64,000 nucleotides of DNA, taken from the NCBI GenBank assembly GCA_021399345.1, contig JAAFKI010000045.1:115228-179227 (forward strand). Reading direction: 5' to 3'. A model generated the notes under the pieces. That model did not search any database, had not been told where the DNA came from, and saw only the letters and a list, made by a program, of their open reading frames with translations. Shown piece after piece: positions 14,992 to 63,490 of the stretch. This DNA comes from Candidatus Heimdallarchaeota archaeon. Lineage in GTDB: Archaea; Asgardarchaeota; Heimdallarchaeia; Heimdallarchaeales; Heimdallarchaeaceae. A program made the translations under genes and the position numbers. Position 1 is the stretch's first letter. Each line of letters opens with the position of its first letter.

Positions 14992-15041
14992 AAAAAATTC
15001 ATTTAAGAAAGTTTATAATTTTGTTCTTTCAATGTAGATTA

Positions 15042-43620: not shown

Positions 43621-45504
43621 TTACTTTCGATTTGTTTTATTCTTCTTGTTAATGGCGTAACCTGCTACTAGGAGAGAAAATAGAATTGATAAAGTTGCAT
43701 AAGGAGCTGTTGTTGGTGTCTCAACTTCAAGCACGACATTAAATATTATGGTTGAATTAAACTGATTTCCAGCCTTATCTTCCACCATTATAATTACAGT
43801 ATAATTTCCATTTTCTACATAATTGTGGAACGCAAAATTATCATCTGTAACATTCTGAACTACACCATCATCCCAGAAAATCCAGACTCTACCTATTCCT
43901 GCATACGCATCAGAATAGTCAAAATAAACTTCAACATAACCATCAATTATTGCTGTATCATTTGAAGTATGACTAGTGATTTCCAATGAAGGATTTTCGA
44001 AATCAAGATAGATAATCGTAAAAATTGTAGCATTTACTAATATAGGGGCATCATTAACTCTTGTAATGTTAATTGAGACATATAATGTCGCGTTATATTC
44101 GCCTGTAACTTGAGGATAATAATGAACACTTGTATTTGTATCAACATCCATGATATCAGTGATTGGTGTTCCATCATCAAAATCCATTTCAACACTATAA
44201 AGTGACCCTCGAGAAGCATCAATTTCGTAGTAAAATGTCACATTATAGTCGTTTGTGTAGGTGTTATTCACAGGATATAAACTAATCTCTGGAACTGAAT
44301 CGTAAATATACAACAATTTCATTATTCCACCCGTTTCATTATAAAACGCACCATAATAGAGATTGTATGCTTCATAATGCAAAATATTCCCTTTGGAGAA
44401 TGAACCAATAGAAACAAAGTATTCTCTTATTGTATCAGTGTGCCCATTTTCGTTTTCTACTGTGTAATTTCTATTAAGTGTTGCTTCGACTTCAGTAAAC
44501 GGAATTATTTCCGTATCATTATCTAGACCTTGTGTTGCAAAATATCTGATTCCATATTTCTCTACATCTGTTGAATTGTGAGTAGTAATATTAAATTCTA
44601 TATTATCTAAATCGGTTATTTTTCCTTCTTGTAATGTATTTGATTCAAAGTAAAAACCATTGTGAATCATATACACATTTAGCTGAGTTCTGACTTCATT
44701 TATACCGGCCCACATATCCCAACCATATGAGTTGTTCGCACTGAAGAAAATTGTTCTATCCGTAAATTCAAACGTTGTGTTGAAAATAATAGAAGTTGTA
44801 GTTGTATTCCCTTCTTGCCAATCCATTTCAATAAATGTTACATCACCATTAAAAACACCTAAAGCGACATCAGTTATTGGATCTCTGTATTTCGACAATG
44901 CTAAAGTTACAGTATCATTTTCTGTGCCCCCATAGATTTCGTAACGGACAGTTATTGTATTATTTGTTTGGTTAGAAGGAGTATAGTAAATGTAACTGTT
45001 TTGTGTCACAGTTGCATTATCAATACTATGAAAATCAGGAGGTGTCCCTTCTTCTGTAACATATAGATAATGCCATGGTCCTAAATGATTAAAATTTTCT
45101 AATTCTTCATAGGTTCCATTAGTGATATCACCAATCCAAGCATAACCCTTGAATGTAGTTAAACCTGTTAAACTGAAAGTTCCTTTATAATATAAACGGT
45201 CAACTAGAGAGGAGGAGTAATTCAATGCTAAGCTGGTTTCGGGGGTTAGACTCAGGTTTGAACCAGAACCTACAATCACTATTCCACTGATACCTATGAA
45301 ACGATCTACGGAATATTCAACTGTTATTAAAGTGAGATTTGGGAAATTGATTCCTTGGAAATCTTCAAGCCCTTCAGCTACTAGGCTTTCTAAAATCGGT
45401 TCTGTAGGACTAGCGGCATGCATTTTAGGATCGAATGATCCAAGTCCCAATGAAAGTGTTATCAGTACTATAACTACAAAGGTATATGTCTTTTTGCTGT
45501 TCAT
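43621..45504 (-). CDS. secreted, sequon-rich surface protein with PKD-like domains and C-terminal TM anchor
   Basis: Signal peptide MNSKKTYTFVVIVLITLSLGLGS. Very many N-x-S/T sites. PKD-like segments (MDFDDGTPITDI...YNATLYVSINI; IFWDDGVVQNVTDDNFAFHNYVENGNYTVIIMVEDKAGN). Tail LSILFSLLVAGYAINKKNKTNRK. Confidence 0.8.
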   Translation of the reverse strand: MNSKKTYTFVVIVLITLSLGLGSFDPKMHAASPTEPILESLVAEGLEDFQGINFPNLTLITVEYSVDRFIGISGIVIVGSGSNLSLTPETSLALNYSSSLVDRLYYKGTFSLTGLTTFKGYAWIGDITNGTYEELENFNHLGPWHYLYVTEEGTPPDFHSIDNATVTQNSYIYYTPSNQTNNTITVRYEIYGGTENDTVTLALSKYRDPITDVALGVFNGDVTFIEMDWQEGNTTTTSIIFNTTFEFTDRTIFFSANNSYGWDMWAGINEVRTQLNVYMIHNGFYFESNTLQEGKITDLDNIEFNITTHNSTDVEKYGIRYFATQGLDNDTEIIPFTEVEATLNRNYTVENENGHTDTIREYFVSIGSFSKGNILHYEAYNLYYGAFYNETGGIMKLLYIYDSVPEISLYPVNNTYTNDYNVTFYYEIDASRGSLYSVEMDFDDGTPITDIMDVDTNTSVHYYPQVTGEYNATLYVSINITRVNDAPILVNATIFTIIYLDFENPSLEITSHTSNDTAIIDGYVEVYFDYSDAYAGIGRVWIFWDDGVVQNVTDDNFAFHNYVENGNYTVIIMVEDKAGNQFNSTIIFNVVLEVETPTTAPYATLSILFSLLVAGYAINKKNKTNRK

Positions 45505-46149: not shown

Positions 46150-46241
46150 TTTTCAATGAAAAAATCTTTGCGGATTATATATAATTGTCGAACGAGCATA
46201 AATTATACGGAAATCTACAGAGTAAATACTTTCACAAAAGC

Positions 46242-46251
46242 ATATATATTA
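46242..46251 (+). promoter_or_regulatory. TATA-box-like element upstream of glnA
   Basis: atatatatta is centred ~37 bp upstream of the ATG at 46284. This argues against the TTG at 46185 used by the ORF track. Confidence 0.35.
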
Positions 46252-46283
46252 ATTTAGATTTTTCTTCTTTACAACCAAATGGT

Positions 46284-47591
46284 ATGGTATATCTCATGGA
46301 TGAACTGAAAGAGTTTTTCAGAAAAAATAATATTGAATTTATTCAATTTCAATTTACAACTATATTTGGAGATCTAAAGTCAGTCGAATTTCCCTCAGAC
46401 ATCTGGGAGGAAATGAAAGATGGAACTGGAGTGGATGGATCTTCCTTAGGATTCTTAAAAACTGAACAGAGCGACATGAAGATAGTTCCTGATCTATCAA
46501 CTTTAGCTGTTTTTCCCTGGGAACCAAGAATGGCAAGATTCATTTGTGATATTTATGGAAATGATGGAAAACCCCATCCGACTGATCCTCGGAGCATTTT
46601 GAAAAAAGTAATTAAACAGGCTAAAAATTTAGGGTATGAATTCAAGACACGACCTGAACTTGAATGGCACTTCCTAGACTCAGATCTTGAACCATATGAA
46701 TCTGGTGAATACATGGATACTCTCCCTTATGATGAATTAGGATATCTTCGACGAAGTATTGCAAGCGATATGCAAGAAATGGGCATTGCAGTTAAAACAA
46801 TTCACCATGAAGTTGGTAATGGTCAACAAGAGATTGAATTCGCTGCTTTAGAAGCGTTAAAGCAAGCAGATGACACACAAACTGCGAAAATGATTGTCAA
46901 AGCAGATTCTCTTTTTAATGAAATTTTTAGTACTTTCATGCCAAAACCCTTTGCAGATCAAGCTGGAAATGGAATGCATGTTCATCAATATCTTACCAAA
47001 GATGGAAAGAATATCTTTGCTGATGAAGAAAAAGGAATCAGTGATACATTACGCTATTTTGTTGGAGGAATTTTGAAACATGTAGATGCAATGACTGCAC
47101 TCTTCAATCCAACAACAAATTCTTACAAAAGATTGGTTCCTGGTCATGAAGCTCCTGTTTACAAATCCTGGGGAGTTGCCAATAGAACAGCTTTAATTCG
47201 AGTTCCAGGATACGAAAAGAAAGCAAGAATCGAATTTCGTGCAACAGATGCTGCTTCAAACATCTACCTAGCTACAGCTTTACTTCTAGCTTCAGGTTTG
47301 GATGGAATCAAGGATAAGATTGAACCAATTCCTCCTACAACTAAAAATATTGAAACTTTATCTATTGAGGAAAGGAAAAGTATGGGGATTGTACAATTAC
47401 CTAGTAGTTTATCTGAAGCTCTGGACCACTTGGAAAAAAGCTCTTTCGTAAAAGAAACCCTTGGTCAAGACATTCTCGAGATATTTCTAGCCGTTAAAAG
47501 AATGGAATGTAAGGAACATGCTGAAGCTAAGAACAAAGGCGATGAAGAAGAATGGGAATGGGAGTATGAAACCTATCTTGACAGAACATAA
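46284..47591 (+). CDS. glnA: glutamine synthetase, type I
   Basis: N-terminal beta-grasp (IEFIQFQFTTIFGDLKSVEF), the catalytic region FMPKPFADQAGNGMHVHQ, NSYKRLVPGHEAPVY and the ATP site RIEFRATDAASNIYLA. Alternative ATG at 46296. Confidence 0.93.
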   Translation: MVYLMDELKEFFRKNNIEFIQFQFTTIFGDLKSVEFPSDIWEEMKDGTGVDGSSLGFLKTEQSDMKIVPDLSTLAVFPWEPRMARFICDIYGNDGKPHPTDPRSILKKVIKQAKNLGYEFKTRPELEWHFLDSDLEPYESGEYMDTLPYDELGYLRRSIASDMQEMGIAVKTIHHEVGNGQQEIEFAALEALKQADDTQTAKMIVKADSLFNEIFSTFMPKPFADQAGNGMHVHQYLTKDGKNIFADEEKGISDTLRYFVGGILKHVDAMTALFNPTTNSYKRLVPGHEAPVYKSWGVANRTALIRVPGYEKKARIEFRATDAASNIYLATALLLASGLDGIKDKIEPIPPTTKNIETLSIEERKSMGIVQLPSSLSEALDHLEKSSFVKETLGQDILEIFLAVKRMECKEHAEAKNKGDEEEWEWEYETYLDRT

Positions 47592-47609: not shown

Positions 47610-47743
47610 ATTCTATCCGCTAAATTCTTGTTTTCAATAAGGTAACTTTAATAAGTCATGTAATGCTAAATAAAACTAATTGGCTGGGGTAGTTTCAACT
47701 GAGTTATGAACGTGAAGATATTGTCGAATTAGACTTCCAAGAA

Positions 47744-49765
47744 TTGGATCTTCCTACAGTAACTCTGTCTAAAACAAGGAAATCACAAATAATTTCACAA
47801 CTCTATCTGTATAGAGAAATTAACTTAAAATTGTTTTCTGAGCAGACTGGCGTTGCCATTGTAACAATCAAAGATTATATTCAGTTACTCATTCAAGCTC
47901 TTATTCTGAGGGGGTATTACAGAAAAGACAGGTTTGTTCTAGTATCAGCATACAGGTATCCAAGGGTGAATCCAGGAAGATTAAGTAATCTTAGAAGAAA
48001 TTTGTTAGGAGTACTAGTAAGCAATAAAAAAATCAATATCCATTTTCTTCGCAAAATTTTGAACATTTCTTCTGAGGAACTAATATCGCATCTTCTATTC
48101 CTCACAGTTAGAGGATTATTTATTGGAAGTCTGAAAAATCAAGAGATATCAGTTCAAAAAATATGGGTGCCTTTCGAGAAAGTAAAAATCAGTTCTGATG
48201 ATACATTTATCATAGGAACATGCATGCTTCTGCGAGATGCAGATTTAAGCAAAGTAGCAAAACTAACAGGTTTCACTAAGGATGAAGTATTTAACACAAT
48301 TACCAATCTTATGTTATATAAAAAATTGGAAGCTTCATTTGAAGTTTCTGGAGGAATTGTTGGTTCGAGTAAAATTTCCGTAAACGTCAAAAAGTATCTG
48401 ATTGCTCCCCGCACTTTACCTATGGAAGCTCTTCAAGGTGATGAAAGATCTGTAGTTGGGTACAGTATATTGAAGAAAGAAGCTGATATAGAGGAATTAG
48501 CAAAATATCTTGACAAAAAAGAAAAAGAAGTAGTCAAAATTATTGCCGTCTTAACTGCAAGGGGTACTTTTCAATTTATATTTAATGAAAAAAATAAGAT
48601 AGTACCAATTATCATTCCTGATACACAACCGAATCAAACAATAGAAGAAATGGCTGCATTATCATTTTTCAATTACGAAGCATTGTTTGGTCTATTATCG
48701 ACTCAAGAAAGAATTCCTCTTAGGAAACTTGCTACTTTAATGAATAGAGAAGTTGACGAAGTCTTAGAAGGTGTAATGAATCTATATCTAGAGGGATTTG
48801 TTACTTGTACATTAAAGGGTGCCACAATTCATGTAGATAGCCTCAAAAGGTATAGTAGAACTCAAGAAGGAACCCTTGAAAGATGGGAAAAAATTGTACT
48901 AGGTATGATAATTGCAAAAACATCTATCACCACTAAAGATATCGAGGACGCATTAGGTATTGACAAAAATCATGCTAAAGAAAGAATGTATGGATTTTAT
49001 GGAAAGGGTTTAATCAAAGGCACTATCACAGGAAATAAACTTGAACCTGAAGAAATACCTATATTTCCTCCTTTAGTTCAACTAGATGATCTTCCTATTC
49101 ATTATCAGGAAATTTATGGTTACATTATTTCAAACTCCAGAGTTTCATTTAGGAATATAATGAAATTCTGGGAGAAAACACTTATTGCATCAAAGAACAT
49201 AGTTTACGAATTAACAGGTTCTGGTCTGATGAATATATCTTCACGTGGAAGTACTGTAACAATAGTTTCAAGCCAAAAATTCCTACCAAATAAGCAATTG
49301 AACGAACTAGGTGATATTTACACCAGAACTGTAAATGAGATTGAAAAATCAAGAAGAAAAAGGATTAAGTTAACAACAATTGCAAATTCTGTTGGAATGG
49401 AATCTTTAGATTTGTTCAAAATGTTATGCCAGTTAATCGCCCATGGGTATTATAAAGGAGTTTTAACTTCAGCTTATTTTGAAAGAGTTGGTAAAATAGT
49501 ATTGCCAAAGGGTAAAAATTATTGCCTCAATTGTGGGTATGTAATAAAATCTTCAACTGAACCTTGCGATAATTGTAAACAATTGCATCAGAAGTGTATG
49601 GTTTGTCAAGGATTAATTAAGAAGGGTGATAATGTGAAAGAATGCCCAACTTGTAACAATATTGCTCATGATGATCATTTGGAACAATGGATGAAGATAA
49701 AGCAAGAATGTCCGATATGTAAAACTAGAATTTCGAAAAGAAATCTAAAAAAATATTCAGTATAA
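47744..49765 (+). CDS. multi-winged-helix repeat protein with C-terminal zinc ribbon and RING-like finger (candidate E3-type protein)
   Basis: About eight ~70-75-aa HTH-plus-hairpin units, then CLNC-x10-CDNC (49523-49576) and CMVC-x12-CPTC-x4-H-x2-H-LEQW-x6-CPIC (49595-49720). TTG start; no in-frame ATG for ~160 codons. Confidence 0.8.
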   Translation: MDLPTVTLSKTRKSQIISQLYLYREINLKLFSEQTGVAIVTIKDYIQLLIQALILRGYYRKDRFVLVSAYRYPRVNPGRLSNLRRNLLGVLVSNKKINIHFLRKILNISSEELISHLLFLTVRGLFIGSLKNQEISVQKIWVPFEKVKISSDDTFIIGTCMLLRDADLSKVAKLTGFTKDEVFNTITNLMLYKKLEASFEVSGGIVGSSKISVNVKKYLIAPRTLPMEALQGDERSVVGYSILKKEADIEELAKYLDKKEKEVVKIIAVLTARGTFQFIFNEKNKIVPIIIPDTQPNQTIEEMAALSFFNYEALFGLLSTQERIPLRKLATLMNREVDEVLEGVMNLYLEGFVTCTLKGATIHVDSLKRYSRTQEGTLERWEKIVLGMIIAKTSITTKDIEDALGIDKNHAKERMYGFYGKGLIKGTITGNKLEPEEIPIFPPLVQLDDLPIHYQEIYGYIISNSRVSFRNIMKFWEKTLIASKNIVYELTGSGLMNISSRGSTVTIVSSQKFLPNKQLNELGDIYTRTVNEIEKSRRKRIKLTTIANSVGMESLDLFKMLCQLIAHGYYKGVLTSAYFERVGKIVLPKGKNYCLNCGYVIKSSTEPCDNCKQLHQKCMVCQGLIKKGDNVKECPTCNNIAHDDHLEQWMKIKQECPICKTRISKRNLKKYSV

Positions 49766-49777
49766 TGGTTGATTTTG

Positions 49778-50089
49778 ATGGAACTTCAAAAAATACAAGA
49801 TGAAGTATATAATTTCTTAAAAGATAGAGATTGGTTCAAATATTCTCCAAATGATGTTCTTATTCATCTGTACGAGGAATTAAGTGAAATTGGAAAACAC
49901 CTACTATTCAAATCAAAGTATAAAGAAGAAGGTGGCCATTCAAAGCCAGATGGAGAAGAATTACCAAGGGAATTTGCTCAAGCATTTTCGTTGTTCTTAC
50001 AACTCTGTATTCTGCTAGATGTCGATTTGGAACAAGCGTGGAAAAATGAGATAAAAATAATGAGAGAAAGATTTCCAATAGATAAATAA
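49778..50089 (+). CDS. MazG-like nucleotide pyrophosphohydrolase (small all-alpha NTP-PPase)
   Basis: IQDEVYNFLKDRDWFKYSPNDVLIHLYEELSEIGKHL and EFAQAFSLFLQLCILLDVDLEQA fit the MazG/DCTPP1-type four-helix pattern with an EExxE-like acidic motif. Confidence 0.7.
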   Translation: MELQKIQDEVYNFLKDRDWFKYSPNDVLIHLYEELSEIGKHLLFKSKYKEEGGHSKPDGEELPREFAQAFSLFLQLCILLDVDLEQAWKNEIKIMRERFPIDK

Positions 50090-50116
50090 AAATATCAATT
50101 AGGGAGAAGTTAGTAA

Positions 50117-50851
50117 ATGAGTGACAAAAAGAAGAGCAAACCTCAAACGAAGAAAACCACAAAAAAAATCTTTGTTGATGTTAAAGGGGTATCAAAAAGC
50201 TATCAAATGGGTGAGGTAGAGGTTCAAGCTCTAAAGAATGTGTCACTTGTTTTAGGTTTAGGAGAAATAGTTTCAATTATTGGACCTTCAGGAAGCGGTA
50301 AGACGACTCTTTTGAATGTTATTGGAGCTTTGGATTATGTTGATTCTGGATCCATTAGCATTAATCGGAAAAAATTAAGTTCAATGAGTGATAAAGAATT
50401 AAGCTTTCTTCGAAGAGACACCATAGGTTATATTTTCCAAAATTTTAACTTGCTAGAGGAAATTAATGCTGAAAAAAATATTGAAATGCCTTTAATTCTA
50501 GCGAAGTTAGAAAAAGAAGATCGTAAAAAGAGAGTAGAGGAATTGTTAGAAAGTGTTGATCTTATCGAGAGAAGATCACATAATCCTGATCAACTATCTG
50601 GAGGAGAACAACAAAGAGTTGCAATAGCAAGAGCTTTAGCTAACAACCCAAAATTACTCCTTGCTGATGAACCCACAGGAAATCTAGATTCTATAACAGG
50701 AGAAAAAGTTCTAAAATTACTTATAGACCTAAGTAAAAATCAAAATAAAACACTAATTTATGTTACTCATGACGTAGAATCAGCTACTTTAGCTGATAGA
50801 CAACTATACATGAGTGATGGTAAAATAGTAAAAGATACTTCCACTAAATAG
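50117..50851 (+). CDS. ABC transporter ATP-binding protein (MacB/LolD/FtsE-like stand-alone NBD)
   Basis: Walker [11 protein letters not shown]-loop, signature [15 protein letters not shown], Walker [14 protein letters not shown]-loop VTHD. Confidence 0.92.
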
Positions 50852-50963
50852 AGATAGAGTGTTCTTTTACAATTAGAAATAACTTTTAAAGCTGTTACTT
50901 GACAGAATTATAAAAATAAATTTTATTTGTAAAGAAGTAGAGATTTGAAAGTTAGTGAAAAAA

Positions 50964-52718
50964 ATGGGTTATAAACGCTGGTTTCTGAAACATCTACTAA
51001 AAGAGAAATTACTATCCACAATATTACTAGTATTTCTCTTAGTATTTATTGGAACAGTCTCTATAACCCCATTATTTATAGGGAATATTTTTAATGAATT
51101 AGCTAGTGAAAATAGCTCATTTAAAGCCATAGTGAGTATTGCTTTATTTATCGCAGGGGCGGGAGTAATCAGAGCAGTTGCAGATTTTACACAGAGTTAT
51201 GCAAATGAGGTTTTAGCTCATAAAATTACCAAAAATGTTACTGAAGAATTCTATGGAGATATGCTCGAGAAGAGTCAAGAATTTCACGATAGAATTAGAA
51301 TAGGAGATATAATGGCAAGAGCTACATATGATACACGTCAAATGAATATATTCATTTCTCCTGGAATAAAATTTCTATTTGAGGCAGCTTTTACACTTCT
51401 CTTTTCGGTTTCTCTAATGATTTGGATCAGTCCAAAATTAACACTTCTTCTAGTAGCAGCTCTGCCTTTCTATGTCATAGTAATGTATGATTATAATAAA
51501 AGATTGCGTCCAATTTCTAAAGCTCAAATGGAACAGAATAGTCTTTTGAATGCCAGATTACAAGAAAGTATTACAGGAATCAGAGTGATTAGGGCTTTTG
51601 TGAAAGAAGAGAAAGAGATAAATGAGTTTGATGATGAAACAGATAAATTACGAGATATAAATACTCGAAGAGGAATTCTTAGTGCTCGTTATTTTGGAGT
51701 TGTGGTAACAGTGTTGATCATCTCTTTCAGCTTCTTATGGGGATCATATGAAGTAATTAACGGAGATTTAGCTCTTGGTTATCTGATTACCTATGTCTTT
51801 CTAATGATGACTTTGATGATGCCTACTTGGCAAATTGGTTGGGGGATCACACAATTTCAAATAGGAATGGCAGCTGCAAAAAGAATTTTTGAAATGAAAG
51901 AGAGAGAGGAGTACGTCCCAGAATCTTCATCACCTATAGAATGGCATAGTAAACAAGGAGCAATCAGTTTCATGAATGTCTCTTTCTCTTATAATGGAGG
52001 AAGTAGTAGAAAAAAAGCGCTGAGCAATATAAACCTAGAAGTCCCTGGAGGATCCACTGTAGCAATCATTGGTAATCCAGGATCAGGAAAATCCACACTG
52101 ATAAAATTACTAATGAGACTTTATGATCCCACACAAGGGAGTATATTCATTGATGGGGTTAATATTAAAGACATACTTCTATCCAATCTCAGAGATCACA
52201 TAGGTGTGATTGAACAAGAGGTATTTCTGTTCAGTAAATCAATTAGGGAAAATATAGCATATGGAAAACCAAATGCAACTAAGGAAGAAATAGAAGAAGC
52301 ATCAGAATTAGCACAAGCTCATGAATTCATAATGGGTTTTGAAAAAGGATATAATACAATTATCGGAGAAAGAGGAGTTACCCTTTCGGGGGGACAAAAA
52401 CAAAGAATTGCAATTGCTAGAGCATTGCTAGTTAATCCTTCATTTTTAATTCTTGATGACGCAAGCAGTGCCATAGATGCAGAAACGGAAAGAAAAATCC
52501 AAACTGCAATAGCTAATGTATTAAAAAATCGAACCACCTTTATTATCACACACAGGTTAGCTACAATTAAGCATGCTGACCTAATCATAGTTTTGAGAAA
52601 TGGTTTACTTAAGGACAGTGGATCCCATGATGAACTTATTCTAAGAAATATCGATTACAGAAGATTGTTTGAAAGGTTTTCTGAGCTTCCACCAATGACA
52701 AAAATGGAGGAGAACTAG
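50964..52718 (+). CDS. ABC exporter, fused TMD-NBD half-transporter (MsbA/MdlA-like)
   Basis: Six-helix TMD, then GNPGSGKST, LSGGQKQRIAIARAL and ILDDASSAID. GTG at 50955; ATG at 50964. Confidence 0.92.
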   Translation: MGYKRWFLKHLLKEKLLSTILLVFLLVFIGTVSITPLFIGNIFNELASENSSFKAIVSIALFIAGAGVIRAVADFTQSYANEVLAHKITKNVTEEFYGDMLEKSQEFHDRIRIGDIMARATYDTRQMNIFISPGIKFLFEAAFTLLFSVSLMIWISPKLTLLLVAALPFYVIVMYDYNKRLRPISKAQMEQNSLLNARLQESITGIRVIRAFVKEEKEINEFDDETDKLRDINTRRGILSARYFGVVVTVLIISFSFLWGSYEVINGDLALGYLITYVFLMMTLMMPTWQIGWGITQFQIGMAAAKRIFEMKEREEYVPESSSPIEWHSKQGAISFMNVSFSYNGGSSRKKALSNINLEVPGGSTVAIIGNPGSGKSTLIKLLMRLYDPTQGSIFIDGVNIKDILLSNLRDHIGVIEQEVFLFSKSIRENIAYGKPNATKEEIEEASELAQAHEFIMGFEKGYNTIIGERGVTLSGGQKQRIAIARALLVNPSFLILDDASSAIDAETERKIQTAIANVLKNRTTFIITHRLATIKHADLIIVLRNGLLKDSGSHDELILRNIDYRRLFERFSELPPMTKMEEN

Positions 52719-52719
52719 T

Positions 52720-54597
52720 ATGTCAGAAGAAGATGATTTCAAGAAATCATATGATAGACAATATGGAGATATTGAACTATTAACACGATTTTGGAGATAT
52801 CTGAAAGTATACAAAAAATATCTTCTCTTTATAATAGTAGGTATTTTAGTAACAGCTGTTGTTACTATTCTCCCCCCATCTATGGTTCAAAGTGCTTTTG
52901 AATCTTTGGCAGATAGAACCAAACCTTTCCCTCAAGCAATCGATTTTATGCCAACATCTCTATTCTTATGGAAATTTCAAATAAACTTGTGGAGAGCTGT
53001 TTACCCTTATGCAATTGGATATGTTCTTCTATCGTTATTCTTATGGTTAGCCCAAGTACTTCTAGGGATCGTTGTAACCATTGTTTCACAAAAGATAATC
53101 AAACGTATTCAAATGGAAACCTATGAGAGTTTACAAGAACATGATTTGATGTATTTTGACACGCAGTCAACAGGTCAAATAATGAGCAGAATAACAAATG
53201 ATTCCCAAGAACTGAATGATATGATCAATGTTGTTTCACAGTTTGTAGCTAATTTCTTCATACTATTTGCAGTACTGATATGGATGTTCGTTGTAAATTG
53301 GAGACTGACATTTATCACCCTTGGAATGGCTCCTTTTGTCTTTATTGTTGCTTTTTTCTTCAGAAGAATAACAAGATTAACCACTGGAAAATGGAGAGAA
53401 GCAATTGGAGAAGTGAATGCTTCTTTCCAAGAGAGCGTAGCGGGAATTTCAGTAGCTAAAGCATTTGGAAGAGAAAAGAAATCTAAAGAAGAATTCGAAG
53501 TAATAAATCAAGCAACTTTCTATCATGCGAAGAAAAGAGCATTTGCGGTTATGGGAATCTGGCCCCTTATGGACGGTATAAGCACAATTGGTGTTTTTGG
53601 AATCACTCTTTACGGTAGTTGGTTATTTTTTGGAAATTTGGCTTCATCAGATGTTATTTTATTGTTCCTCCTACTGCTAAATAGATTCTTATATCCTCTT
53701 GTTAGAGTAGCATCTCAGTTTTCAATCATCCAATCTGGTTTCGCAGCTATGGAACGTATTTTCAGTATAGTTGATGCTAAAAAGGAAATTGTTAATCCAG
53801 CTAATCCAATCAGTAAAGAGATGCAAGGACAAATCACTTTCGAGGATGTTTATCATCAATATGTTCAAGGAGAACTTGTATTGAAAGATATCAACCTTAA
53901 GATTCAACCAGGTGAGTCTATAGCTGTCGTTGGCCATACTGGCGCTGGCAAGACCACTATTGCTTCCTTGTTAATGCGGTTTTACGATATTTCCAAAGGT
54001 TCAATTAAAATCGATAATGTTGATATTAGAGAATATGACTTACACAATCTCAGATCTCAGATAGGTTTGGTGAGTCAAGATGTTTTCCTTTTTAGTGGAA
54101 CAGTTTTAGATAATATACGATATGGTAATCCTGAAGCAAGCTTATCTGAAGTTCAAAAGGTGATAGATATTGTATCAGCACAAGAATTTATTGACGCTTT
54201 ACCTGATGGTTTAGAAACTGAATTAGGTGAACGAGGTAAGGGTCTTTCATCTGGACAGCGTCAAATGGTTTCATTTGCTAGAACATTATTAATTGATCCT
54301 AAGATATTAATATTGGACGAAGCTACAGCTGCAGTGGATGCTTACACTGAATGGAAAATCCAAGAAGCACTCGATAAGCTTCTAGCTGACAGAACTTCGA
54401 TAGTAATAGCTCATCGTTTAACAACTATAAAGAATTCAGACAGAATCATAGTTCTTGATCATGGTAAAATAGTTGAAGAAGGTAATCATGAGAGTCTTAT
54501 GAATAAAGGTGAATTATATTCTGAACTTTATGAAACATATTTCAAACATCAATCTGCTGAATGGATTTCAGAAATCAGTGATGTATTTACTGATTAA
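52720..54597 (+). CDS. ABC exporter, fused TMD-NBD half-transporter (MdlB-like partner)
   Basis: TMD, then GHTGAGKTT, LSSGQRQMVSFARTL and ILDEATAAVD. Starts 1 nt after the upstream stop, so a heterodimer pair is likely. Confidence 0.92.
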   Translation: MSEEDDFKKSYDRQYGDIELLTRFWRYLKVYKKYLLFIIVGILVTAVVTILPPSMVQSAFESLADRTKPFPQAIDFMPTSLFLWKFQINLWRAVYPYAIGYVLLSLFLWLAQVLLGIVVTIVSQKIIKRIQMETYESLQEHDLMYFDTQSTGQIMSRITNDSQELNDMINVVSQFVANFFILFAVLIWMFVVNWRLTFITLGMAPFVFIVAFFFRRITRLTTGKWREAIGEVNASFQESVAGISVAKAFGREKKSKEEFEVINQATFYHAKKRAFAVMGIWPLMDGISTIGVFGITLYGSWLFFGNLASSDVILLFLLLLNRFLYPLVRVASQFSIIQSGFAAMERIFSIVDAKKEIVNPANPISKEMQGQITFEDVYHQYVQGELVLKDINLKIQPGESIAVVGHTGAGKTTIASLLMRFYDISKGSIKIDNVDIREYDLHNLRSQIGLVSQDVFLFSGTVLDNIRYGNPEASLSEVQKVIDIVSAQEFIDALPDGLETELGERGKGLSSGQRQMVSFARTLLIDPKILILDEATAAVDAYTEWKIQEALDKLLADRTSIVIAHRLTTIKNSDRIIVLDHGKIVEEGNHESLMNKGELYSELYETYFKHQSAEWISEISDVFTD

Positions 54598-54638
54598 AAA
54601 TACTGGAAGAAAGATACTAAGATAACAGAAATAAATAA

Positions 54639-56060
54639 TTAGATGACGCAAATTCGTTCTTCTTTTGAGTATAGAAATATCATTACATACATTTCCTCTA
54701 GAAGTGAAAAACAAGAATAATTCTGATAAACTTTTGTACTAAATGCATGACCAATTATAGTTTTACCTTCACACCTTATATTTTTCTTCATATCCACTGA
54801 TATGTTTGCTTCAAGAAGTGATGATATTGGTATTCTATTATAATATTGGACACTATTTGGATGATAAAACCATTCAGATCCAGAGTTTTTAGTTGTAGTC
54901 CATGTATAATGGAAGTAATTTTCACCTATATCACAATTTGCCCAGCGCTCATATAGTTCATCTGTTTGAGTTATCTGGAATTCAAGATACATATAACCAT
55001 CATAAGTACCCATATACAAATCTGAAATGTCATATGTATCATTCTCATGTTTTGAATAAAGAAAAACAAAATTATTGTCTCCAAAAGAGCAAATAGAATC
55101 TTGGTGGAAATCAATTATACCTTCTATTTCCACGATTTGACTAGTTTCATAATAACTAGAATTATATACTTCAACAGAATATATCGTAGTATTACCGCTT
55201 ATACTCCCACTATCGTAGAAGAAAGCATTAAAATGGTCATTAGTATAGAAAATTGATAAAGGTATGAATTGATCTTCATCGGTTCCTAATTCAAAGAGAG
55301 TCCAATTTTTATCTTCCCACTCAATAGCCAGAATAGGATAATAGCTAGTACTATTTAGATATCTCTTCCAAATCAAAGCCGTTCTATTTGATTCAATTCT
55401 GAAATCTCCAGGAGTATAATTCTTGTAATCTTTAATTTGTGGAAAAATATCACTAAGAAATACAAAATTACTGTCTTCCTCATAGAAGATTGTTGGTTCT
55501 ATATTTTCTCCCCAACAACGAGAAGCTAATCTAATTTTGTTAAATTGATTGAAATTAAGATTGAACAATTTACCCATAGTCCTTCTAGTGGTGGTATTAT
55601 CAAAAAAAGCAGGAATTACCCATATTTCATTGTTAAGTGTATAATACCGCTCCACCAGAGCGATTTGACCATCATAGAAATACCAGTAAATAAGAGGTGT
55701 TTTATTTTGATCCAAGAATATTCGTAGTTCACGATTATCACCAGAAAATTGTCTCTTAATAAGCTCAAACGTGAAAGAATGATTAGAAAAATCTTGTAGG
55801 TCTAGAAATGCATAAACAGGGCCCCAATTCGAAAAATCATAACTCATAATAGAAAAATGTACTTTATCATCTTCTTCAACAACCAGATCAGAAAAAGTAC
55901 CATTGTTAAATATGGGAGTTGGGTATAAGTAATTAAATGAAGAAGGTTCATTAACTGTATTATCTGGAATAAGGAAAAACACAGGTAACAATATACTTCC
56001 AAGAATAATAATAACCAAAGTAACAGTTATTATAATCCATTTTGTTCTCAAATTAAGCAC
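54639..56060 (-). CDS. exported/membrane-anchored hypothetical protein (473 aa)
   Basis: N-terminal signal-anchor (WIIITVTLVIIILGSILLPVFFLI). Aromatic- and Asn-rich extracellular region with several sequons. No recognised family. Confidence 0.65.
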   Translation of the reverse strand: MLNLRTKWIIITVTLVIIILGSILLPVFFLIPDNTVNEPSSFNYLYPTPIFNNGTFSDLVVEEDDKVHFSIMSYDFSNWGPVYAFLDLQDFSNHSFTFELIKRQFSGDNRELRIFLDQNKTPLIYWYFYDGQIALVERYYTLNNEIWVIPAFFDNTTTRRTMGKLFNLNFNQFNKIRLASRCWGENIEPTIFYEEDSNFVFLSDIFPQIKDYKNYTPGDFRIESNRTALIWKRYLNSTSYYPILAIEWEDKNWTLFELGTDEDQFIPLSIFYTNDHFNAFFYDSGSISGNTTIYSVEVYNSSYYETSQIVEIEGIIDFHQDSICSFGDNNFVFLYSKHENDTYDISDLYMGTYDGYMYLEFQITQTDELYERWANCDIGENYFHYTWTTTKNSGSEWFYHPNSVQYYNRIPISSLLEANISVDMKKNIRCEGKTIIGHAFSTKVYQNYSCFSLLEEMYVMIFLYSKEERICVI

Positions 56061-62650: not shown

Positions 62651-63490
62651 TTAAGCCAGAAAAGCTGCTAGTAACCACGAAATTGCTATGATAATTACAG
62701 CAACCACATTCAGAACAGCATATAGATTGGATGTTTCTTCATTGTAAATGTGATTAACATCTCTTACTATTTCATTCAATTTTGTATCAATAGATTCAAG
62801 AATGTCTTTACCTTCTCCTCCTTCAGTAAACTGTTCAGTTGAGGTGCTTAAAACATCAATAAATCCATGTAACATTTTTTTGTCAACTTCAAGCAAAGTA
62901 GGCGATGTAATTGTATGCAGTTTTTCGTGTAACCGTTTAACTTCTTCTAAAGTTAACTGTGGTATTTCCCATTTTATATTAAATTCAACTAAATTTGCTA
63001 GATGAGTGGTTAAATTATCATAATATATTCCAAAAGGTATGGCCTTGTAATCTAATTCATTAACCAATCTAAAGAATTTTATTTCTAAATCCTCTTGTTT
63101 TGATGATTTATAATATTTCGAAGGGTCAACAACCAATGCTACAGCTTGAGGGAATAGGTTCTGATAGGTTCTTTGAGTTCCTTTATCTGTTCCTGAGAGG
63201 AAGCAACCATATGAAGGATGAGTATGAGCCCAACCAACAATGGTTTCATCCTTATCCCTTTTGTACAAATCTTCAACAATCTGAACCAGAGCTTCATCAC
63301 TAAGAACTACATATGTTGATGTTTGTTCTTGTCTTCCAGTATCAAAATCAGTAATTACTAATGTTCCCTCATCATTAACATAACCTAACAATAAACCCGC
63401 TGATTCTTTTGATTTATCTAACGAATCAACTGCTAGCATCTTAGCTAAAACATATGCGGAAATTAGAATCTCCTTTTTTGAGTGAGTCAT
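62651..63490 (-). CDS. JAMM/MPN+ metalloprotease with C-terminal transmembrane (tail) anchor
   Basis: ESAGLLLGY (upstream Glu) and VGWAHTHPSYGCFLSGTD give a complete E...H-x-H-x7-S-x2-D JAMM motif. Helical middle region; C-terminal LYAVLNVVAVIIIAISWLLAAFLA. Confidence 0.85.
   Translation of the reverse strand: MTHSKKEILISAYVLAKMLAVDSLDKSKESAGLLLGYVNDEGTLVITDFDTGRQEQTSTYVVLSDEALVQIVEDLYKRDKDETIVGWAHTHPSYGCFLSGTDKGTQRTYQNLFPQAVALVVDPSKYYKSSKQEDLEIKFFRLVNELDYKAIPFGIYYDNLTTHLANLVEFNIKWEIPQLTLEEVKRLHEKLHTITSPTLLEVDKKMLHGFIDVLSTSTEQFTEGGEGKDILESIDTKLNEIVRDVNHIYNEETSNLYAVLNVVAVIIIAISWLLAAFLA

What the first reader, a model, noticed from the sequence alone, without database searches (positions are those of the whole stretch)
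47744..49765. About eight tandem winged-helix-like repeats fused to a zinc ribbon and a C-terminal RING-like finger: candidate archaeal E3 ligase of unusual architecture
The 673-aa product opens with TTG. It reads as about eight consecutive ~70-75-aa units with one recurring helix-turn-helix-plus-hairpin pattern:
- INLKLFSEQTGVAIVTIKDYIQLLIQALILRGYY
- INIHFLRKILNISSEELISHLLFLTVRGLFIGSL
- ADLSKVAKLTGFTKDEVFNTITNLMLYKKLEASF
- ADIEELAKYLDKKEKEVVKIIAVLTARGTFQFIF
- IPLRKLATLMNREVDEVLEGVMNLYLEGFVTCTL
- ITTKDIEDALGIDKNHAKERMYGFYGKGLIKGTI
- VSFRNIMKFWEKTLIASKNIVYELTGSGLMNISS
- IKLTTIANSVGMESLDLFKMLCQLIAHGYYKGVL

A CxxC-x10-CxxC ribbon follows (49523-49576), then C-x2-C-x12-C-x2-C-x4-H-x2-H-x3-W-x6-C-P-x-C (49595-49720). 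That last element has the eight-ligand count and spacing, the Trp after ligand 6 and the terminal CPxC of RING/RING-H2 fingers, but the ligand order is C4H2C2. Tandem WH arrays recall ESCRT-II, cullin/PCI and TFIIE/Rpc34-type scaffolds. A poly-WH platform ending in a RING would be a ready-made substrate- or nucleic-acid-binding E3. I see no ubiquitin-like, E1 or E2 gene in this window. A JAMM/MPN+ gene lies 13 kb away.
Basis: partly seen in the sequence, partly recalled or inferred. Interest (0 to 1): 0.75.

Follow-up and report, generated by a model that had tools for sequence, protein, structure and literature searches.

The report
Eight-winged-helix RING ligase of Heimdallarchaeia
This gene encodes a conserved protein of Heimdall-group Asgard archaea, with eight tandem winged-helix domains ending in a zinc ribbon and a RING finger that keeps every hallmark of a ubiquitin ligase; this domain combination was not found described in the papers searched, it resembles the scaffold of the eukaryotic UFM1 ligase, and the gene almost always sits next to a gene for a surface glycoprotein.

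Summary
ORF 47744-49765 encodes eight winged-helix (WH) units, a CxxC-x10-CxxC zinc ribbon and a C4H2C2 RING. The units are related by profile comparison, and a confident AlphaFold2 model shows H-E-H-H-E-E eight times.

All 12 Zn ligands are conserved down to 18% identity, as are the E2-contact residues V/I620, W649, P657 and K/R660. The modelled C-terminus superposes on RING/U-box domains at 1.1-2.1 Å.

The WH units are of the PCI/DDRGK1 type, and the whole model's best PDB match is the UFL1-DDRGK1 UFM1-ligase scaffold. The ZnR-RING module recurs in about 100 other proteins, about 70% of them membrane proteins; the few that carry names are Asgard archaea. It also resembles the C-terminal modules of IFT-A and GATOR2 subunits.

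The family was found only in Heimdallarchaeia, including AB_125, whose genome encodes ubiquitin and catalytic E2s.

Two points are new. The TTG start is probably wrong, because a conserved 17-codon N-terminal extension lies upstream behind a TAG. And the most persistent neighbour across deep divergence is a PKD-domain type-I membrane glycoprotein.

Verdict: a probable RING E3 ligase on a new WH-array scaffold, a new variant of a known kind. Its activity and substrate are untested.

The parts
47744..49765 (+). ORF as delimited by the first canonical start (TTG): 8 WH domains + zinc ribbon + RING, 673 aa
47693..47743 (+). In-frame, conserved N-terminal extension (FQLSYEREDIVELDFQE) behind TAG 47690-92. 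The probable true start is the near-cognate CTG at 47699-47701. A GGGG Shine-Dalgarno-like motif lies at 47686-89 and a TTTAATAA TATA-like box at 47647-54.
   Evidence: Homologues start at GTG/ATG two codons before this Leu codon. Against AB_125 there are 4 synonymous and 2 non-synonymous changes. TTG 47744 is not conserved as a start (CTG, TTA or CTT in L010, L032, L012). The promoter and SD assignments come from inspection only.
47765..47956 (+). WH1 (aa 8-71), net charge +7
47981..48169 (+). WH2 (aa 80-142); carries the best Pfam PCI stretch (aa 84-118) and the DDRGK1-like match
48188..48403 (+). WH3 (aa 149-220), long wing hairpin
48431..48613 (+). WH4 (aa 230-290), invariant LTARGTFQ
48668..48850 (+). 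WH5 (aa 309-369); CSN2-PCI-like and DDRGK1-like by profile
48875..49060 (+). WH6 (aa 378-439). Together with its flanking linkers (RYSRxQEGTLERWEKI, EEIPIFPPLxQLDDLP) this is the most conserved part of the protein and the probable partner-binding core.
49091..49279 (+). WH7 (aa 450-512)
49307..49495 (+). WH8 (aa 522-584), basic SRRKR patch, net charge +5
49523..49576 (+). Zinc ribbon C594-x2-C597-x10-C608-x2-C611
49595..49720 (+). RING finger with C4H2C2 ligand order. Inferred site 1 is C618, C621, H642, H645 and site 2 is C634, C637, C656, C659. E2-contact residues are V620, W649 and P657, with linchpin K660.
43621..45504 (-). PKD-domain type-I membrane glycoprotein (signal peptide, C-terminal TM helix, Lys-rich tail). 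It is the most persistent genomic neighbour of the family and a candidate partner, substrate or regulated target.
49769..50089 (+). Downstream gene, 3 nt after the stop codon: DCTPP1/MazG-like all-alpha NTP pyrophosphatase. Probably co-transcribed.
50117..50851 (+). LolD/MacB/FtsE-type ABC ATPase, a conserved downstream neighbour
46185..47591 (+). Glutamine synthetase, a conserved upstream neighbour in the clade with at least 40% identity. A T-run after its stop suggests a separate transcript.
62651..63490 (-). JAB/MPN+ metalloprotease with an intact JAMM motif and a C-terminal TM helix. It is syntenic at 8-11 kb in relatives. A link to the E3 is not shown.

Best explanation
The gene encodes a soluble, single-chain RING-type ubiquitin (or ubiquitin-like) E3 ligase found only in Heimdallarchaeia.

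**Catalytic end.** The C-terminal zinc ribbon plus RING is a C4H2C2 variant of RING-H2, cross-braced. Site 1 would be C618/C621/H642/H645 and site 2 C634/C637/C656/C659. It docks an E2~Ub thioester through V620, W649 and P657. It primes the thioester with the linchpin K660.

**Scaffold.** The N-terminal array of eight PCI/DDRGK1-type winged helices is a rigid scaffold that selects and positions the substrate. This is analogous to the WH array of the UFL1-DDRGK1 UFM1 ligase. The highly conserved WH5-WH6 region with its linkers is the likely partner-binding site. The basic terminal units (WH1-2, WH7-8) could contact an acidic surface or nucleic acid.

**Likely site of action.** The same ZnR-RING module sits mostly on the cytosolic ends of membrane proteins in other proteins of the protein library, and the gene is persistently linked to a PKD-domain type-I membrane glycoprotein. 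The ligase therefore most likely acts at the cytoplasmic face of the membrane, on or with that protein.

**Shown versus inferred.**
- Shown: the domain architecture, its conservation, the RING fold on a model, the E2-contact signature and the gene linkage.
- Inferred: catalysis, the identity of the modifier and E2, the substrate, and the membrane connection.
For: **Architecture.**
- Eight WH units plus ZnR plus RING.
- Foldseek returns tandem-WH proteins, with UFL1-DDRGK1 (8b9x) first at E 1.6e-7.

**RING.**
- Pfam zf-RING_2 scores 27.5 bits against a gathering score of 27.3.
- Arkadia/RNF165 match at E 1e-5 to 2e-7.
- The C-terminal model superposes on RING/U-box domains bound to E2~Ub (5ulk, 5d0k, 9n1f, 5vo0) at rmsd 1.1-1.8 Å.
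- Across 28 sequences down to 18% identity, ligands are conserved in 27-28 of 28 rows. Among the 27 rows without a gap, V/I620 is kept in all 28, W649 in 25 (Y in 2), P657 in 27 and K/R660 in 24.

**WH type.**
- Pfam PCI scores 31.1 bits against a gathering score of 22.
- PCI is the family most often hit by single units.
- By family profile, DDRGK1 WH gives E 5e-4 and CSN2 gives E 4e-4.

**Ubiquitin machinery in the lineage.** AB_125 has an 80%-identical orthologue and is reported to encode Ub, E1 and two catalytic E2s (PMC9192718).

**Membrane context.**
- 66 of 94 other ZnR-RING proteins have a predicted TM segment upstream of the module.
- The PKD protein orthologue lies within 2.3 kb in nearly all loci with enough flank. 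It is directly adjacent in clades where the E3 is only 22-25% identical.
Against: - No biochemical evidence exists.
- The Pfam RING score is marginal, and the ligand order departs from C3H2C3.
- The gene is not in a Ub/E1/E2 operon, and none of those genes lies in the 64-kb window.
- Zn geometry could not be measured, because model coordinates are not exposed and AlphaFold2 has no zinc.
- The ZnR-RING modules that resemble it most over their whole length (GATOR2, IFT-A) are largely structural in eukaryotes.
- The protein is basic (pI 9.4). One relative replaces the RING with an Mrr nuclease. Adjacency of a WH protein to a conserved neighbour is also the classic signature of a transcription regulator.
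- The cytosolic tail of the PKD protein is only about 10 residues long.
Confidence: 0.55

Rival explanations
1. The protein is a nucleic-acid-binding regulator. The eight winged helices bind DNA or RNA, for example controlling the neighbouring PKD-glycoprotein gene, or acting on chromatin or the ribosome. The ZnR-RING would be a non-catalytic zinc module for dimerisation or nucleic-acid contact.
For: - The protein is basic (pI 9.4), with net charges of +5 to +7 on WH1, WH2 and WH8.
- Single units hit TFIIE_alpha, HTH_5, MarR-like and TrmB-like Pfam families.
- Automatic annotations name homologues 'TFIIE alpha' or 'DNA-binding transcriptional regulator'.
- Relative P0073 carries an Mrr restriction-nuclease domain in place of the RING, and P0071 carries an N-terminal resolvase/HTH.
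- Conserved adjacency to one target-like gene, divergently oriented in the window clade.
- Foldseek also returns TFIIIC tauB, RPC62 and SelB.
Against: - A purely structural zinc module would not be expected to keep all four E2-contact positions (V/I, W, P, K/R) over 18-95% identity.
- The most conserved region (WH5-WH6 and its linkers) is neutral or acidic and hydrophobic rather than basic.
- The closest WH relatives by sequence (PCI, DDRGK1) are protein-protein modules.
- DNA binding and E3 activity are not mutually exclusive.
Confidence: 0.2
2. The protein is a non-catalytic architectural scaffold. The WH array would act as a single-chain PCI-like platform, and the ZnR-RING would serve only to join partners, as the C-terminal ZnF-RING domains do in GATOR2/SEA and IFT-A.
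For: - The whole 87-residue ZnR+RING model matches IFT-A WDR19 best (TMq 0.66, rmsd 3.4 Å) and also matches GATOR2 subunits.
- Profile hits: WDR19 E 1.8e-5, MIOS E 4.2e-5.
- The PCI domain is above its Pfam threshold.
- pTM 0.69 suggests a fixed arrangement of the domains.
Against: - The E2-contact and linchpin residues are conserved.
- No beta-propeller/alpha-solenoid and no PCI helical-repeat subdomain are present.
- No partner subunits, such as an MPN protein, are encoded next to it. The JAB gene is 13 kb away among unrelated genes.
Confidence: 0.15
3. The protein is a component of a conflict or defence system. The WH array would be a sensor fused to interchangeable effectors (RING, Mrr nuclease).
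For: - Effector swapping occurs in relatives: Mrr_cat in P0073, whose nuclease domain matches ZorD at E 1e-11, and a resolvase fusion in P0071.
- A type II/IV restriction-like context lies near P0066.
Against: - The window protein has no PADLOC hit beyond generic WH similarity.
- The gene lies in one conserved position among housekeeping genes (GlnA, TFB, AlaRS) in the genomes scanned, down to 40% identity, with no mobile-element signs in the window.
- The Mrr and resolvase variants lack the PKD neighbour and look like separate offshoots.
Confidence: 0.05

Closest known systems
UFL1-DDRGK1 (UFBP1) scaffold-type UFM1 E3 ligase
   Same: - An E3 built on a tandem array of winged helices.
- It is the best Foldseek PDB match of the whole model (8b9x, E 1.6e-7; also 8qfc, 8ohd, 9gy4).
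- The DDRGK1 WH is the best natural PDB sequence match of the generic WH unit (E 5.7e-4) and of WH2 and WH5 in the family profile.
- One distant relative (P0078) passes the Pfam E3_UFM1_ligase threshold (25.5 against 23.2 bits).
- hhalign aligns WH5-WH8 collinearly with UFL1 residues 12-236.
- UFL1 and DDRGK1 have been proposed to originate in Asgard archaea (PMC10183829).
   Different: - UFL1 has no RING and works with UFC1/UFM1 through an N-terminal helix. This protein has a ZnR-RING.
- The window protein itself does not hit PF09743, and the family profile does not hit UFL1 chains in the PDB.
- hhalign probability is only 59%.
- TM-scores are low (0.09-0.22), so the rigid-body arrangement differs.
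RING-H2 fingers of the Arkadia/RNF165 (Ark2C) type
   Same: - Best sequence matches (E 1e-5 to 2e-7).
- Same fold on the model (rmsd 1.1-2.1 Å, TMt up to 0.82).
- Shared features: hydrophobic residue at C1+2, Trp after ligand 6, CPxC, and a basic linchpin after ligand 8.
   Different: - Ligand 4 is Cys rather than His and ligand 6 is His rather than Cys, giving C4H2C2 instead of C3H2C3.
- The spacer between ligands 4 and 5 is x4 rather than x2-3.
- The RING is always preceded by a CxxC-x10-CxxC zinc ribbon.
C-terminal ZnF-RING modules of IFT-A (WDR19/IFT144) and GATOR2/SEA (MIOS, WDR24, WDR59)
   Same: - A zinc ribbon immediately followed by a RING.
- Profile hits span both elements (WDR19 E 1.8e-5, MIOS E 4.2e-5).
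- The model aligns over 87 columns to WDR19 at rmsd 3.4 Å and TMq 0.66.
   Different: - Those proteins are beta-propeller/alpha-solenoid coat-like proteins, and their RINGs mainly serve as structural junctions.
- Here the module follows a WH array and keeps the E2-contact residues.
PCI domain proteins (proteasome lid, COP9 signalosome, eIF3)
   Same: - Pfam PCI is above its gathering score (31.1 against 22).
- PCI is the family hit most often by single units (9 of 96).
- CSN2 gives E 4e-4 and Rpn9/Rpn6 give weaker hits.
   Different: - Only the WH subdomain is present, repeated eight times in one chain.
- The helical-repeat subdomain that defines a full PCI domain is absent.
Nse1 (Smc5/6) and MAGE-RING ligases / kite proteins
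   Same: From established knowledge, these couple tandem winged helices to a RING-type finger. Nse1 has two WH domains plus a C-terminal variant RING, and MAGE tandem WH domains bind RING E3s. ScpB, a kite protein, appears among the Foldseek hits (6juv, E 0.013).
   Different: - Nse1 has two WH domains rather than eight and a C4HC3 RING.
- No Nse1 or MAGE structure is among the top 50 Foldseek hits.
- This comparison was not tested further.

Membership tests
RING finger (Pfam zf-RING_2 PF13639, RING-H2) | Profile score at or above the curated gathering score | tested here: met
   27.5 bits against 27.3, aa 617-660. The margin is small. Most homologues carry the precomputed PF13639 hit.
RING finger (Pfam zf-RING_2 PF13639, RING-H2) | Eight Zn ligands with cross-brace spacing | tested here: met
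   C-x2-C-x12-C-x2-C-x4-H-x2-H-x10-C-x2-C. It is invariant in 25 sequences and conserved in 27-28 of 28 in the broad family.
RING finger (Pfam zf-RING_2 PF13639, RING-H2) | Canonical C3H2C3 ligand identities | tested here: not met
   Ligand 4 is Cys and ligand 6 is His (C4H2C2). The same order occurs in 95 of 107 related modules, and the canonical order in 1. It is a distinct RING variant.
RING finger (Pfam zf-RING_2 PF13639, RING-H2) | RING/U-box fold | tested here: met
   The AlphaFold2 C-terminal model (pLDDT 73.5) superposes on RNF165, Rad18, TRAF6, Ring1B and Prp19 at rmsd 1.1-2.1 Å. This is a model without zinc, and the coordinates could not be inspected.
RING finger (Pfam zf-RING_2 PF13639, RING-H2) | E2-binding surface (hydrophobic residue at C1+2, Trp on the helix, Pro at C7+1) and a basic linchpin | tested here: met
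   V/I in 28 of 28, W in 25 of 27 (Y in 2), P in 27 of 27, K/R in 24 of 27.
RING finger (Pfam zf-RING_2 PF13639, RING-H2) | E2-dependent ubiquitin ligase activity | not testable with these tools
   Requires biochemistry.
PCI domain (PF01399) | Profile score at or above the gathering score | tested here: met
   31.1 bits against 22. Relatives reach 48-53 bits.
PCI domain (PF01399) | Helical-repeat (TPR-like) subdomain preceding the winged helix | tested here: not met
   The model shows only H-E-H-H-E-E units joined by linkers of 6-18 residues.
UFL1 (E3_UFM1_ligase PF09743) / DDRGK1 WH array | Sequence profile match | tested here: not met
   - The window protein has no PF09743 hit at E up to 10.
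- No UFL1 chain is hit by the family profiles.
- One distant relative, P0078, passes (25.5 against 23.2 bits), but with no single significant stretch.
- The DDRGK1 WH is hit at E 5e-4.
UFL1 (E3_UFM1_ligase PF09743) / DDRGK1 WH array | Collinear multi-WH homology by profile-profile comparison | tested here: inconclusive
   hhalign of the family against 20 eukaryotic UFL1 sequences gives 59% probability, E 9e-5, over 224 columns. Collinearity is expected between any two WH arrays.
UFL1 (E3_UFM1_ligase PF09743) / DDRGK1 WH array | Structural similarity of the array | tested here: inconclusive
   It is the top Foldseek hit (E 1.6e-7, probability 1.0), but TM is 0.09-0.22 and rmsd 15 Å.
ZnF-RING C-terminal module of GATOR2/SEA and IFT-A subunits | Zinc ribbon immediately N-terminal to the RING, matched as one unit | tested here: met
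   WDR19 E 1.8e-5 and MIOS E 4.2e-5 span both elements. WDR19 aligns over 87 columns at rmsd 3.4 Å.
ZnF-RING C-terminal module of GATOR2/SEA and IFT-A subunits | Beta-propeller plus alpha-solenoid body | tested here: not met
   The body is eight winged helices.
Known anti-phage defence systems (PADLOC) | Match to a defence-system protein model | tested here: not met
   Only a generic WH-level hit to a CARF model, E 2e-4, with no significant stretch.

The most novel reading that the evidence does not exclude
This family is the surviving archaeal form of the winged-helix-array scaffold from which the eukaryotic UFM1 ligase (UFL1-DDRGK1) descends, and it still carries a catalytic RING. On this reading the RING-less, 'scaffold-type' UFM1 E3 evolved from a conventional RING ubiquitin ligase of a Heimdallarchaeial ancestor. 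That ancestor would already have worked at the membrane on a surface-protein or ribosome-proximal substrate.
Probability: 0.17. Interest if true: 0.8.

Novelty: new variant of a known kind. Interest (0 to 1): 0.6.

Why it matters
Heimdallarchaeia are the closest known archaeal relatives of eukaryotes, and how the eukaryotic ubiquitin toolkit diversified is an open question. This family offers four things.

- **A testable E3.** It is a conserved E3 candidate that lies in the same genomic position in the genomes scanned, has a defined and confidently modelled architecture, and is distinct from the small RING proteins of the Asgard ubiquitin operons.
- **A possible link to UFL1.** It may connect RING ligases to the puzzling RING-less UFL1-DDRGK1 scaffold. 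The Asgard ancestry of that scaffold has been proposed but not characterised.
- **A possible precursor module.** The zinc-ribbon-plus-C4H2C2-RING module is shared with many membrane proteins in the protein library and resembles the C-terminal modules of IFT-A and GATOR2 coat-like proteins. This hints at where those eukaryotic modules came from.
- **A candidate partner.** The conserved pairing with a type-I surface glycoprotein provides a concrete candidate partner or substrate. That could make ubiquitin-dependent membrane-protein handling in Asgard archaea (the Ub-ESCRT link) directly testable.

Tried and rejected
- **Zn geometry.** Fold similarity was used as a proxy.
- **UFL1 by sequence profile.** The close-family profile (A1) and the broad profile (A4) do not hit UFL1 chains in the PDB.
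- **P0078 relatives.** Searching relatives of P0078, the one member with a Pfam UFL1 hit, returned only itself and one family member, so that lead could not be widened.
ESCRT-II appears only at Foldseek E 0.03-0.09, no cullin appears, and TFIIE appears only as weak Pfam hits. These were set aside in favour of PCI/DDRGK1/UFL1.
- **NZF-type ubiquitin-binding finger.** The ribbon has NZF-like x10 spacing but lacks the Trp and Asn signature (read from the sequence), so this idea was dropped.
- **Defence system.** There is no PADLOC support.
- **Link to the JAB gene.** The JAB gene is syntenic but separated by about ten unrelated genes, so no case could be made.
- **Link to GlnA.** GlnA is conserved only in the clade with at least 40% identity. 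It is replaced by PdxT in the divergent clade, so it was treated as lineage synteny.
- **Literature.** Searches found no description of this architecture. The supplements of PMC10183829 held as text do not list the Asgard UFL1/DDRGK1 homologues, so overlap with that set could not be checked.


Full report
**1. The observation**

ORF 47744-49765 (+) exists and translates to 673 aa. The two zinc motifs are at the stated coordinates with the stated spacings.

The repeat is not a chance pattern. I cut a 25-sequence family alignment (A1) into eight unit sub-alignments and compared them by hhalign. Unit 2 matches units 3-8 at 85-96% probability (E 6e-6 to 2e-9), and 18 of 28 unit pairs exceed 75%. 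Pairwise identity between units is only about 10-17%, so the duplication is ancient.

An AlphaFold2 model built on A1 is confident (mean pLDDT 87.7, pTM 0.69). It shows helix-strand-helix-helix-strand-strand, the canonical winged helix, eight times. The units are joined by linkers of 6-18 residues.

**2. The start codon**

The TTG start is probably wrong. In frame and directly upstream, after a TAG at 47690-92, the window encodes FQLSYEREDIVELDFQE. Homologues begin MFQLSYEREDIVDLDFHE or M(K/V)KLSFERED.

Relatives start at a GTG or ATG two codons before a conserved Leu codon. The window clade reads GGGG-TAG where AB_125 reads GGGG-TG, so a one-base insertion has destroyed that start.

- The 17 codons differ from AB_125 by 4 synonymous and 2 non-synonymous changes, so they are still under coding constraint.
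- TTG 47744 is CTG, TTA or CTT in close relatives (L010, L032, L012).

The likely start is therefore a near-cognate codon, CTG 47699. A GGGG motif lies 9 nt upstream and a TTTAATAA box about 45 nt upstream. The promoter and SD assignments come from inspection only. The protein is then about 688 aa.

**3. The C-terminal module**

*Sequence matches.* Pfam zf-RING_2 just passes its threshold (27.5 against 27.3 bits). The best PDB sequence matches are the RING-H2 domains of Arkadia and RNF165, at E about 1e-5 with the single sequence and 2e-7 with a profile of the last 91 residues (A2).

*Ligand assignment.* By that alignment the ligands are:
- C618 and C621 (ligands 1, 2)
- C634 and C637 (ligands 3, 4)
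- H642 and H645 (ligands 5, 6)
- C656 and C659 (ligands 7, 8)

This is C4H2C2 rather than C3H2C3.

*Fold.* A separate AlphaFold2 model of this part (pLDDT 73.5) superposes on RING and U-box domains at rmsd 1.1-2.1 Å over 46-59 residues. The targets include RNF165, Rad18, TRAF6, Ring1B and Prp19, and several of the structures are E2~Ub complexes.

*Conservation.* In a broad family alignment (A4, 28 sequences, 18-64% identity to the window protein), the ligands are conserved in 27-28 of 28 rows. The four positions that canonical RINGs use to bind and activate E2~Ub (established knowledge from c-Cbl, RNF4 and Arkadia) are kept among the 27 rows that have no gap there:
- V/I at C1+2: 28 of 28
- Trp after ligand 6: 25 of 27 (Tyr in 2)
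- Pro after ligand 7: 27 of 27
- Lys/Arg 'linchpin' after ligand 8: 24 of 27

This is the strongest argument for a catalytic E3.

**4. The module is not unique to this protein**

An exhaustive profile search of 1.84 billion representative proteins found 1637 hits at E up to 1e-3. Most of the top 150 that are not family members match only profile positions of about 590-677, that is, zinc ribbon plus RING.

- 95 of these 107 proteins carry exactly C-x2-C ... C-x2-C-x4-H-x2-H-x3-W/Y ... CPxC. Only 1 has the canonical order.
- 66 of 94 have a predicted transmembrane segment upstream of the module, by a simple hydropathy scan.
- Several have Ig-like, TSP3 or FG-GAP ectodomains.
- Where a source gives a name, they are Freyarchaeota, Lokiarchaeia or Heimdallarchaeota.

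Taken as one unit, ribbon plus RING resembles the C-terminal ZnF-RING of IFT-A WDR19. The profile E-value is 1.8e-5, and the Foldseek match covers 87 columns at rmsd 3.4 Å with TMq 0.66. It also resembles GATOR2 MIOS, WDR24 and WDR59.

**5. The winged-helix array**

*Structure.* Foldseek of the whole model against the PDB returns tandem-WH proteins, in this order:
- first, the UFL1-DDRGK1 chimera (8b9x, E 1.6e-7) and UFL1 on the 60S ribosome (8qfc, 8ohd, 9gy4)
- then TFIIIC tauB, SelB and RPC62/C82
- further down, ScpB and ESCRT-II (E 0.03-0.09)

TM-scores are low, so the domains match but their rigid-body arrangement does not.

*Sequence.*
- Pfam PCI is above threshold (31.1 against 22 bits).
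- PCI is the family hit most often when 96 single units are scanned.
- A generic unit profile (A3) finds the DDRGK1 winged helix as its best natural PDB match (E 5.7e-4).
- The broad family profile finds CSN2 (E 4e-4, on WH5) and DDRGK1 (E 5e-4, on WH2; 7e-4, on WH5).

So the units are PCI/DDRGK1-type winged helices, but without the helical-repeat half of a full PCI domain.

*Is the link to UFL1 specific?* This remains open.
- For: one distant member (P0078) passes Pfam E3_UFM1_ligase (25.5 against 23.2 bits, with no single significant stretch). hhalign of the family against 20 eukaryotic UFL1 sequences aligns WH5-WH8 collinearly with UFL1 residues 12-236.
- Against: that hhalign result is only 59% probability (E 9e-5). 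The window protein has no PF09743 hit. No UFL1 chain is hit by the sequence profiles.
- Context: Picchianti et al. [quoted passage not shown] Ufm1 homologues have since been reported in nine Asgard clades (PMC12962969).

*Within the array.* WH5-WH6 and the linkers around them are the most conserved part, more conserved than the RING (top-residue frequency 0.70-0.90 against 0.71). Their net charge is near zero. WH1, WH2 and WH8 carry +5 to +7 and WH7 +4, and the protein's pI is 9.4.

**6. Distribution**

- The first homology search returned 44 full-length relatives at 44-95% identity. All named ones are Heimdallarchaeota, Heimdallarchaeaceae or 'Asgard group'.
- The GTDB species-representative scan gave 35 loci, all Heimdallarchaeota MAGs. 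They include AB_125 (80% identity) and the closed genomes of Ca. Heimdallarchaeum endolithica and Ca. H. aukensis (46% and 44%). One 2.6-kb contig is binned as Thorarchaeota.
- More divergent full-length members (18-27% identity, 350-420 bits) keep the whole architecture. Where named, these are Heimdallarchaeota too.
- Offshoots replace or add effectors. P0073 (Hodarchaeales) has a WH array plus an Mrr nuclease. P0071 has an HTH plus resolvase, then the WH array and RING.

**7. Genomic context**

The window has no Ub-like, E1 or E2 Pfam hit in any ORF of at least 90 aa. The gene sits among housekeeping genes: AlaRS, SepF, TFB, GlnA and primase.

- The block GlnA - WH8-RING - DCTPP1-like orf106 - LolD-type ABC ATPase is kept in all loci from 40% to 95% identity. 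The only variations are local: orf106 lies after the ABC ATPase in the Ca. Heimdallarchaeum genomes and was not detected in L004/L005, and GlnA is displaced in L021.
- orf106 starts 3 nt after the stop codon, and the ABC ATPase gene starts 27 nt after orf106 ends.
- The JAB/MPN+ gene is syntenic 8-11 kb downstream. It has an intact JAMM motif and a C-terminal TM helix, but about ten unrelated genes intervene.

The most persistent neighbour is different. It is the 627-aa PKD-domain protein at 43621-45504 (-), with a signal peptide, many N-glycosylation sequons, a C-terminal TM helix and a Lys-rich tail.

- It has full-length orthologues (24-37% identity over about 600 aa, E 1e-15 to 1e-125) within 2.3 kb of the family gene in nearly all loci with enough flank.
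- It is directly adjacent on the same strand (gaps of 101-273 nt) in L006, L021, L025, L040, L043 and L044. In four of these (L006, L040, L043, L044) the E3 is only 22-25% identical to the window protein, and the other neighbours are entirely different (PdxT/PdxS and S8 peptidases).
- It is missing within 10 kb only in L033 and L038, and in the effector-swapped variants.

A gene pair that survives this much divergence and rearrangement suggests a functional link.

**8. Mechanism**

Best-supported reading (confidence about 0.55): a soluble RING E3 in which ZnR-RING recruits and activates an E2~Ub. The eight-WH array, a UFL1/DDRGK1-like scaffold, positions a substrate or partner bound at the conserved WH5-WH6 core.

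Its sister modules are mostly the cytosolic ends of membrane proteins, and its most constant neighbour is a type-I surface glycoprotein. I therefore infer action at the cytoplasmic face of the membrane, possibly on that protein's Lys-rich tail. This would fit the Ub-ESCRT link proposed for Asgard archaea (PMC9192718).

AB_125, which has an 80% orthologue, is reported to encode ubiquitin and two E2s with catalytic Cys.

- Shown: architecture, conservation, fold on a model, E2-contact signature, linkage.
- Inferred: catalysis, modifier, substrate, localisation.

Rivals:
- A nucleic-acid-binding regulator (0.2). Support comes from the basic charge, the Mrr and resolvase variants and the adjacency logic.
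- A non-catalytic scaffold with a structural RING, as in GATOR2 and IFT-A (0.15).
- A defence sensor-effector (0.05). There is no PADLOC support, and the gene keeps one position among housekeeping genes across the loci scanned.

**9. Novelty**

RING E3s in Asgard archaea are known, and the family is already in databases under generic names such as 'RING finger domain-containing protein', 'E3 ubiquitin protein ligase' and 'TFIIE alpha'. I found no paper describing the following:
- an eight-WH array fused to ZnR-RING
- the C4H2C2 ZnR-RING module as a family
- the link to the PKD glycoprotein

I rate it a new variant of a known kind, with interest 0.6. The most novel reading not excluded is that this is the RING-bearing archaeal relative of the UFL1-DDRGK1 scaffold (probability about 0.17).

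Noticed in passing
window 47686-47746: The annotated TTG start is probably wrong. A conserved 17-codon N-terminal extension lies in frame behind a TAG. The clade appears to have lost its GTG start through a 1-nt insertion (GGGG-TAG against GGGG-TG in AB_125). It probably initiates at a near-cognate CTG (47699), or at ATT in some relatives.
   Followed up: yes
window 43621-45504 (-); L006 7751-9853; L043 12186-13994; L044 12177-14021; L040 about 11821-13680: A PKD-domain type-I membrane glycoprotein is the most persistent neighbour of the WH8-RING gene. It is directly adjacent even in clades where both proteins are only about 25% identical to the window copies. In L043 and L044 a 1200-aa S8 peptidase follows it, and L006 has two S8 peptidases nearby.
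   Followed up: yes
proteins P0087-P0193: The zinc ribbon plus C4H2C2 RING (CPxC-x4-HxxH-x3-W...CPxC) is a module shared by at least 95 representative clusters. About 70% sit after a predicted TM segment, and several follow Ig-like, TSP3 or FG-GAP ectodomains; the few with names are Asgard archaea. The module resembles the ZnF-RING C-termini of IFT-A WDR19 and GATOR2 MIOS, WDR24 and WDR59. It is a possible archaeal precursor of those modules.
   Followed up: partly
P0073 (L007 10001-12829), P0071 (L045 1265-3943): Relatives of the WH array have other effectors. A Hodarchaeales protein has a C-terminal Mrr restriction-nuclease domain instead of the ZnR-RING. Another has an N-terminal HTH plus serine-recombinase (resolvase) domain ahead of the WH array and RING. 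Neither has the PKD neighbour.
   Followed up: partly
window 62651-63490 (-): This is a eukaryote-type JAB/MPN+ protease with an intact JAMM motif (HTHPSYGCFLSGTD) and a C-terminal transmembrane helix, so it is a membrane-anchored putative deubiquitylase. It is syntenic 8-11 kb from the E3 in most relatives.
   Followed up: partly
window 49769-50851 (+): orf106 is a DCTPP1/MazG-like NTP pyrophosphatase (PDB 2a3q, E 0.0018). A LolD/MacB-type ABC ATPase follows it. Gaps of 3 and 27 nt after the E3 gene suggest that the three genes are co-transcribed.
   Followed up: partly
window 50955-56060: Two fused ABC exporter genes (587 and 625 aa) and a 473-aa ORF on the opposite strand are present here. 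The two exporter genes are also found in the closest relatives and in L012 and L025. They are absent at this position in L001, L002 and most relatives at 57-64% identity, which indicates an insertion into otherwise conserved synteny.
   Followed up: no
window 15021-15425, 9117-9641, 30174-32213, 20789-22909: Other genes of possible interest are present. They include a Roadblock/LC7 domain protein, a CGI-121 (KEOPS) homologue, a PLD-like protein with a Lamin Tail Domain and a TrmB-like N-terminus, and a 706-aa protein combining a DnaJ-type CXXCXGXG zinc domain, an OB fold and a DHH phosphoesterase domain.
   Followed up: no
L043 9200-9802, L044 9277-9903; window 46185-47591: The gene immediately upstream of the E3 is glutamine synthetase in the window's clade. 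In the divergent clade it is PdxT, a glutaminase subunit. Both are glutamine-handling enzymes. This is probably coincidence, and it was not examined.
   Followed up: no
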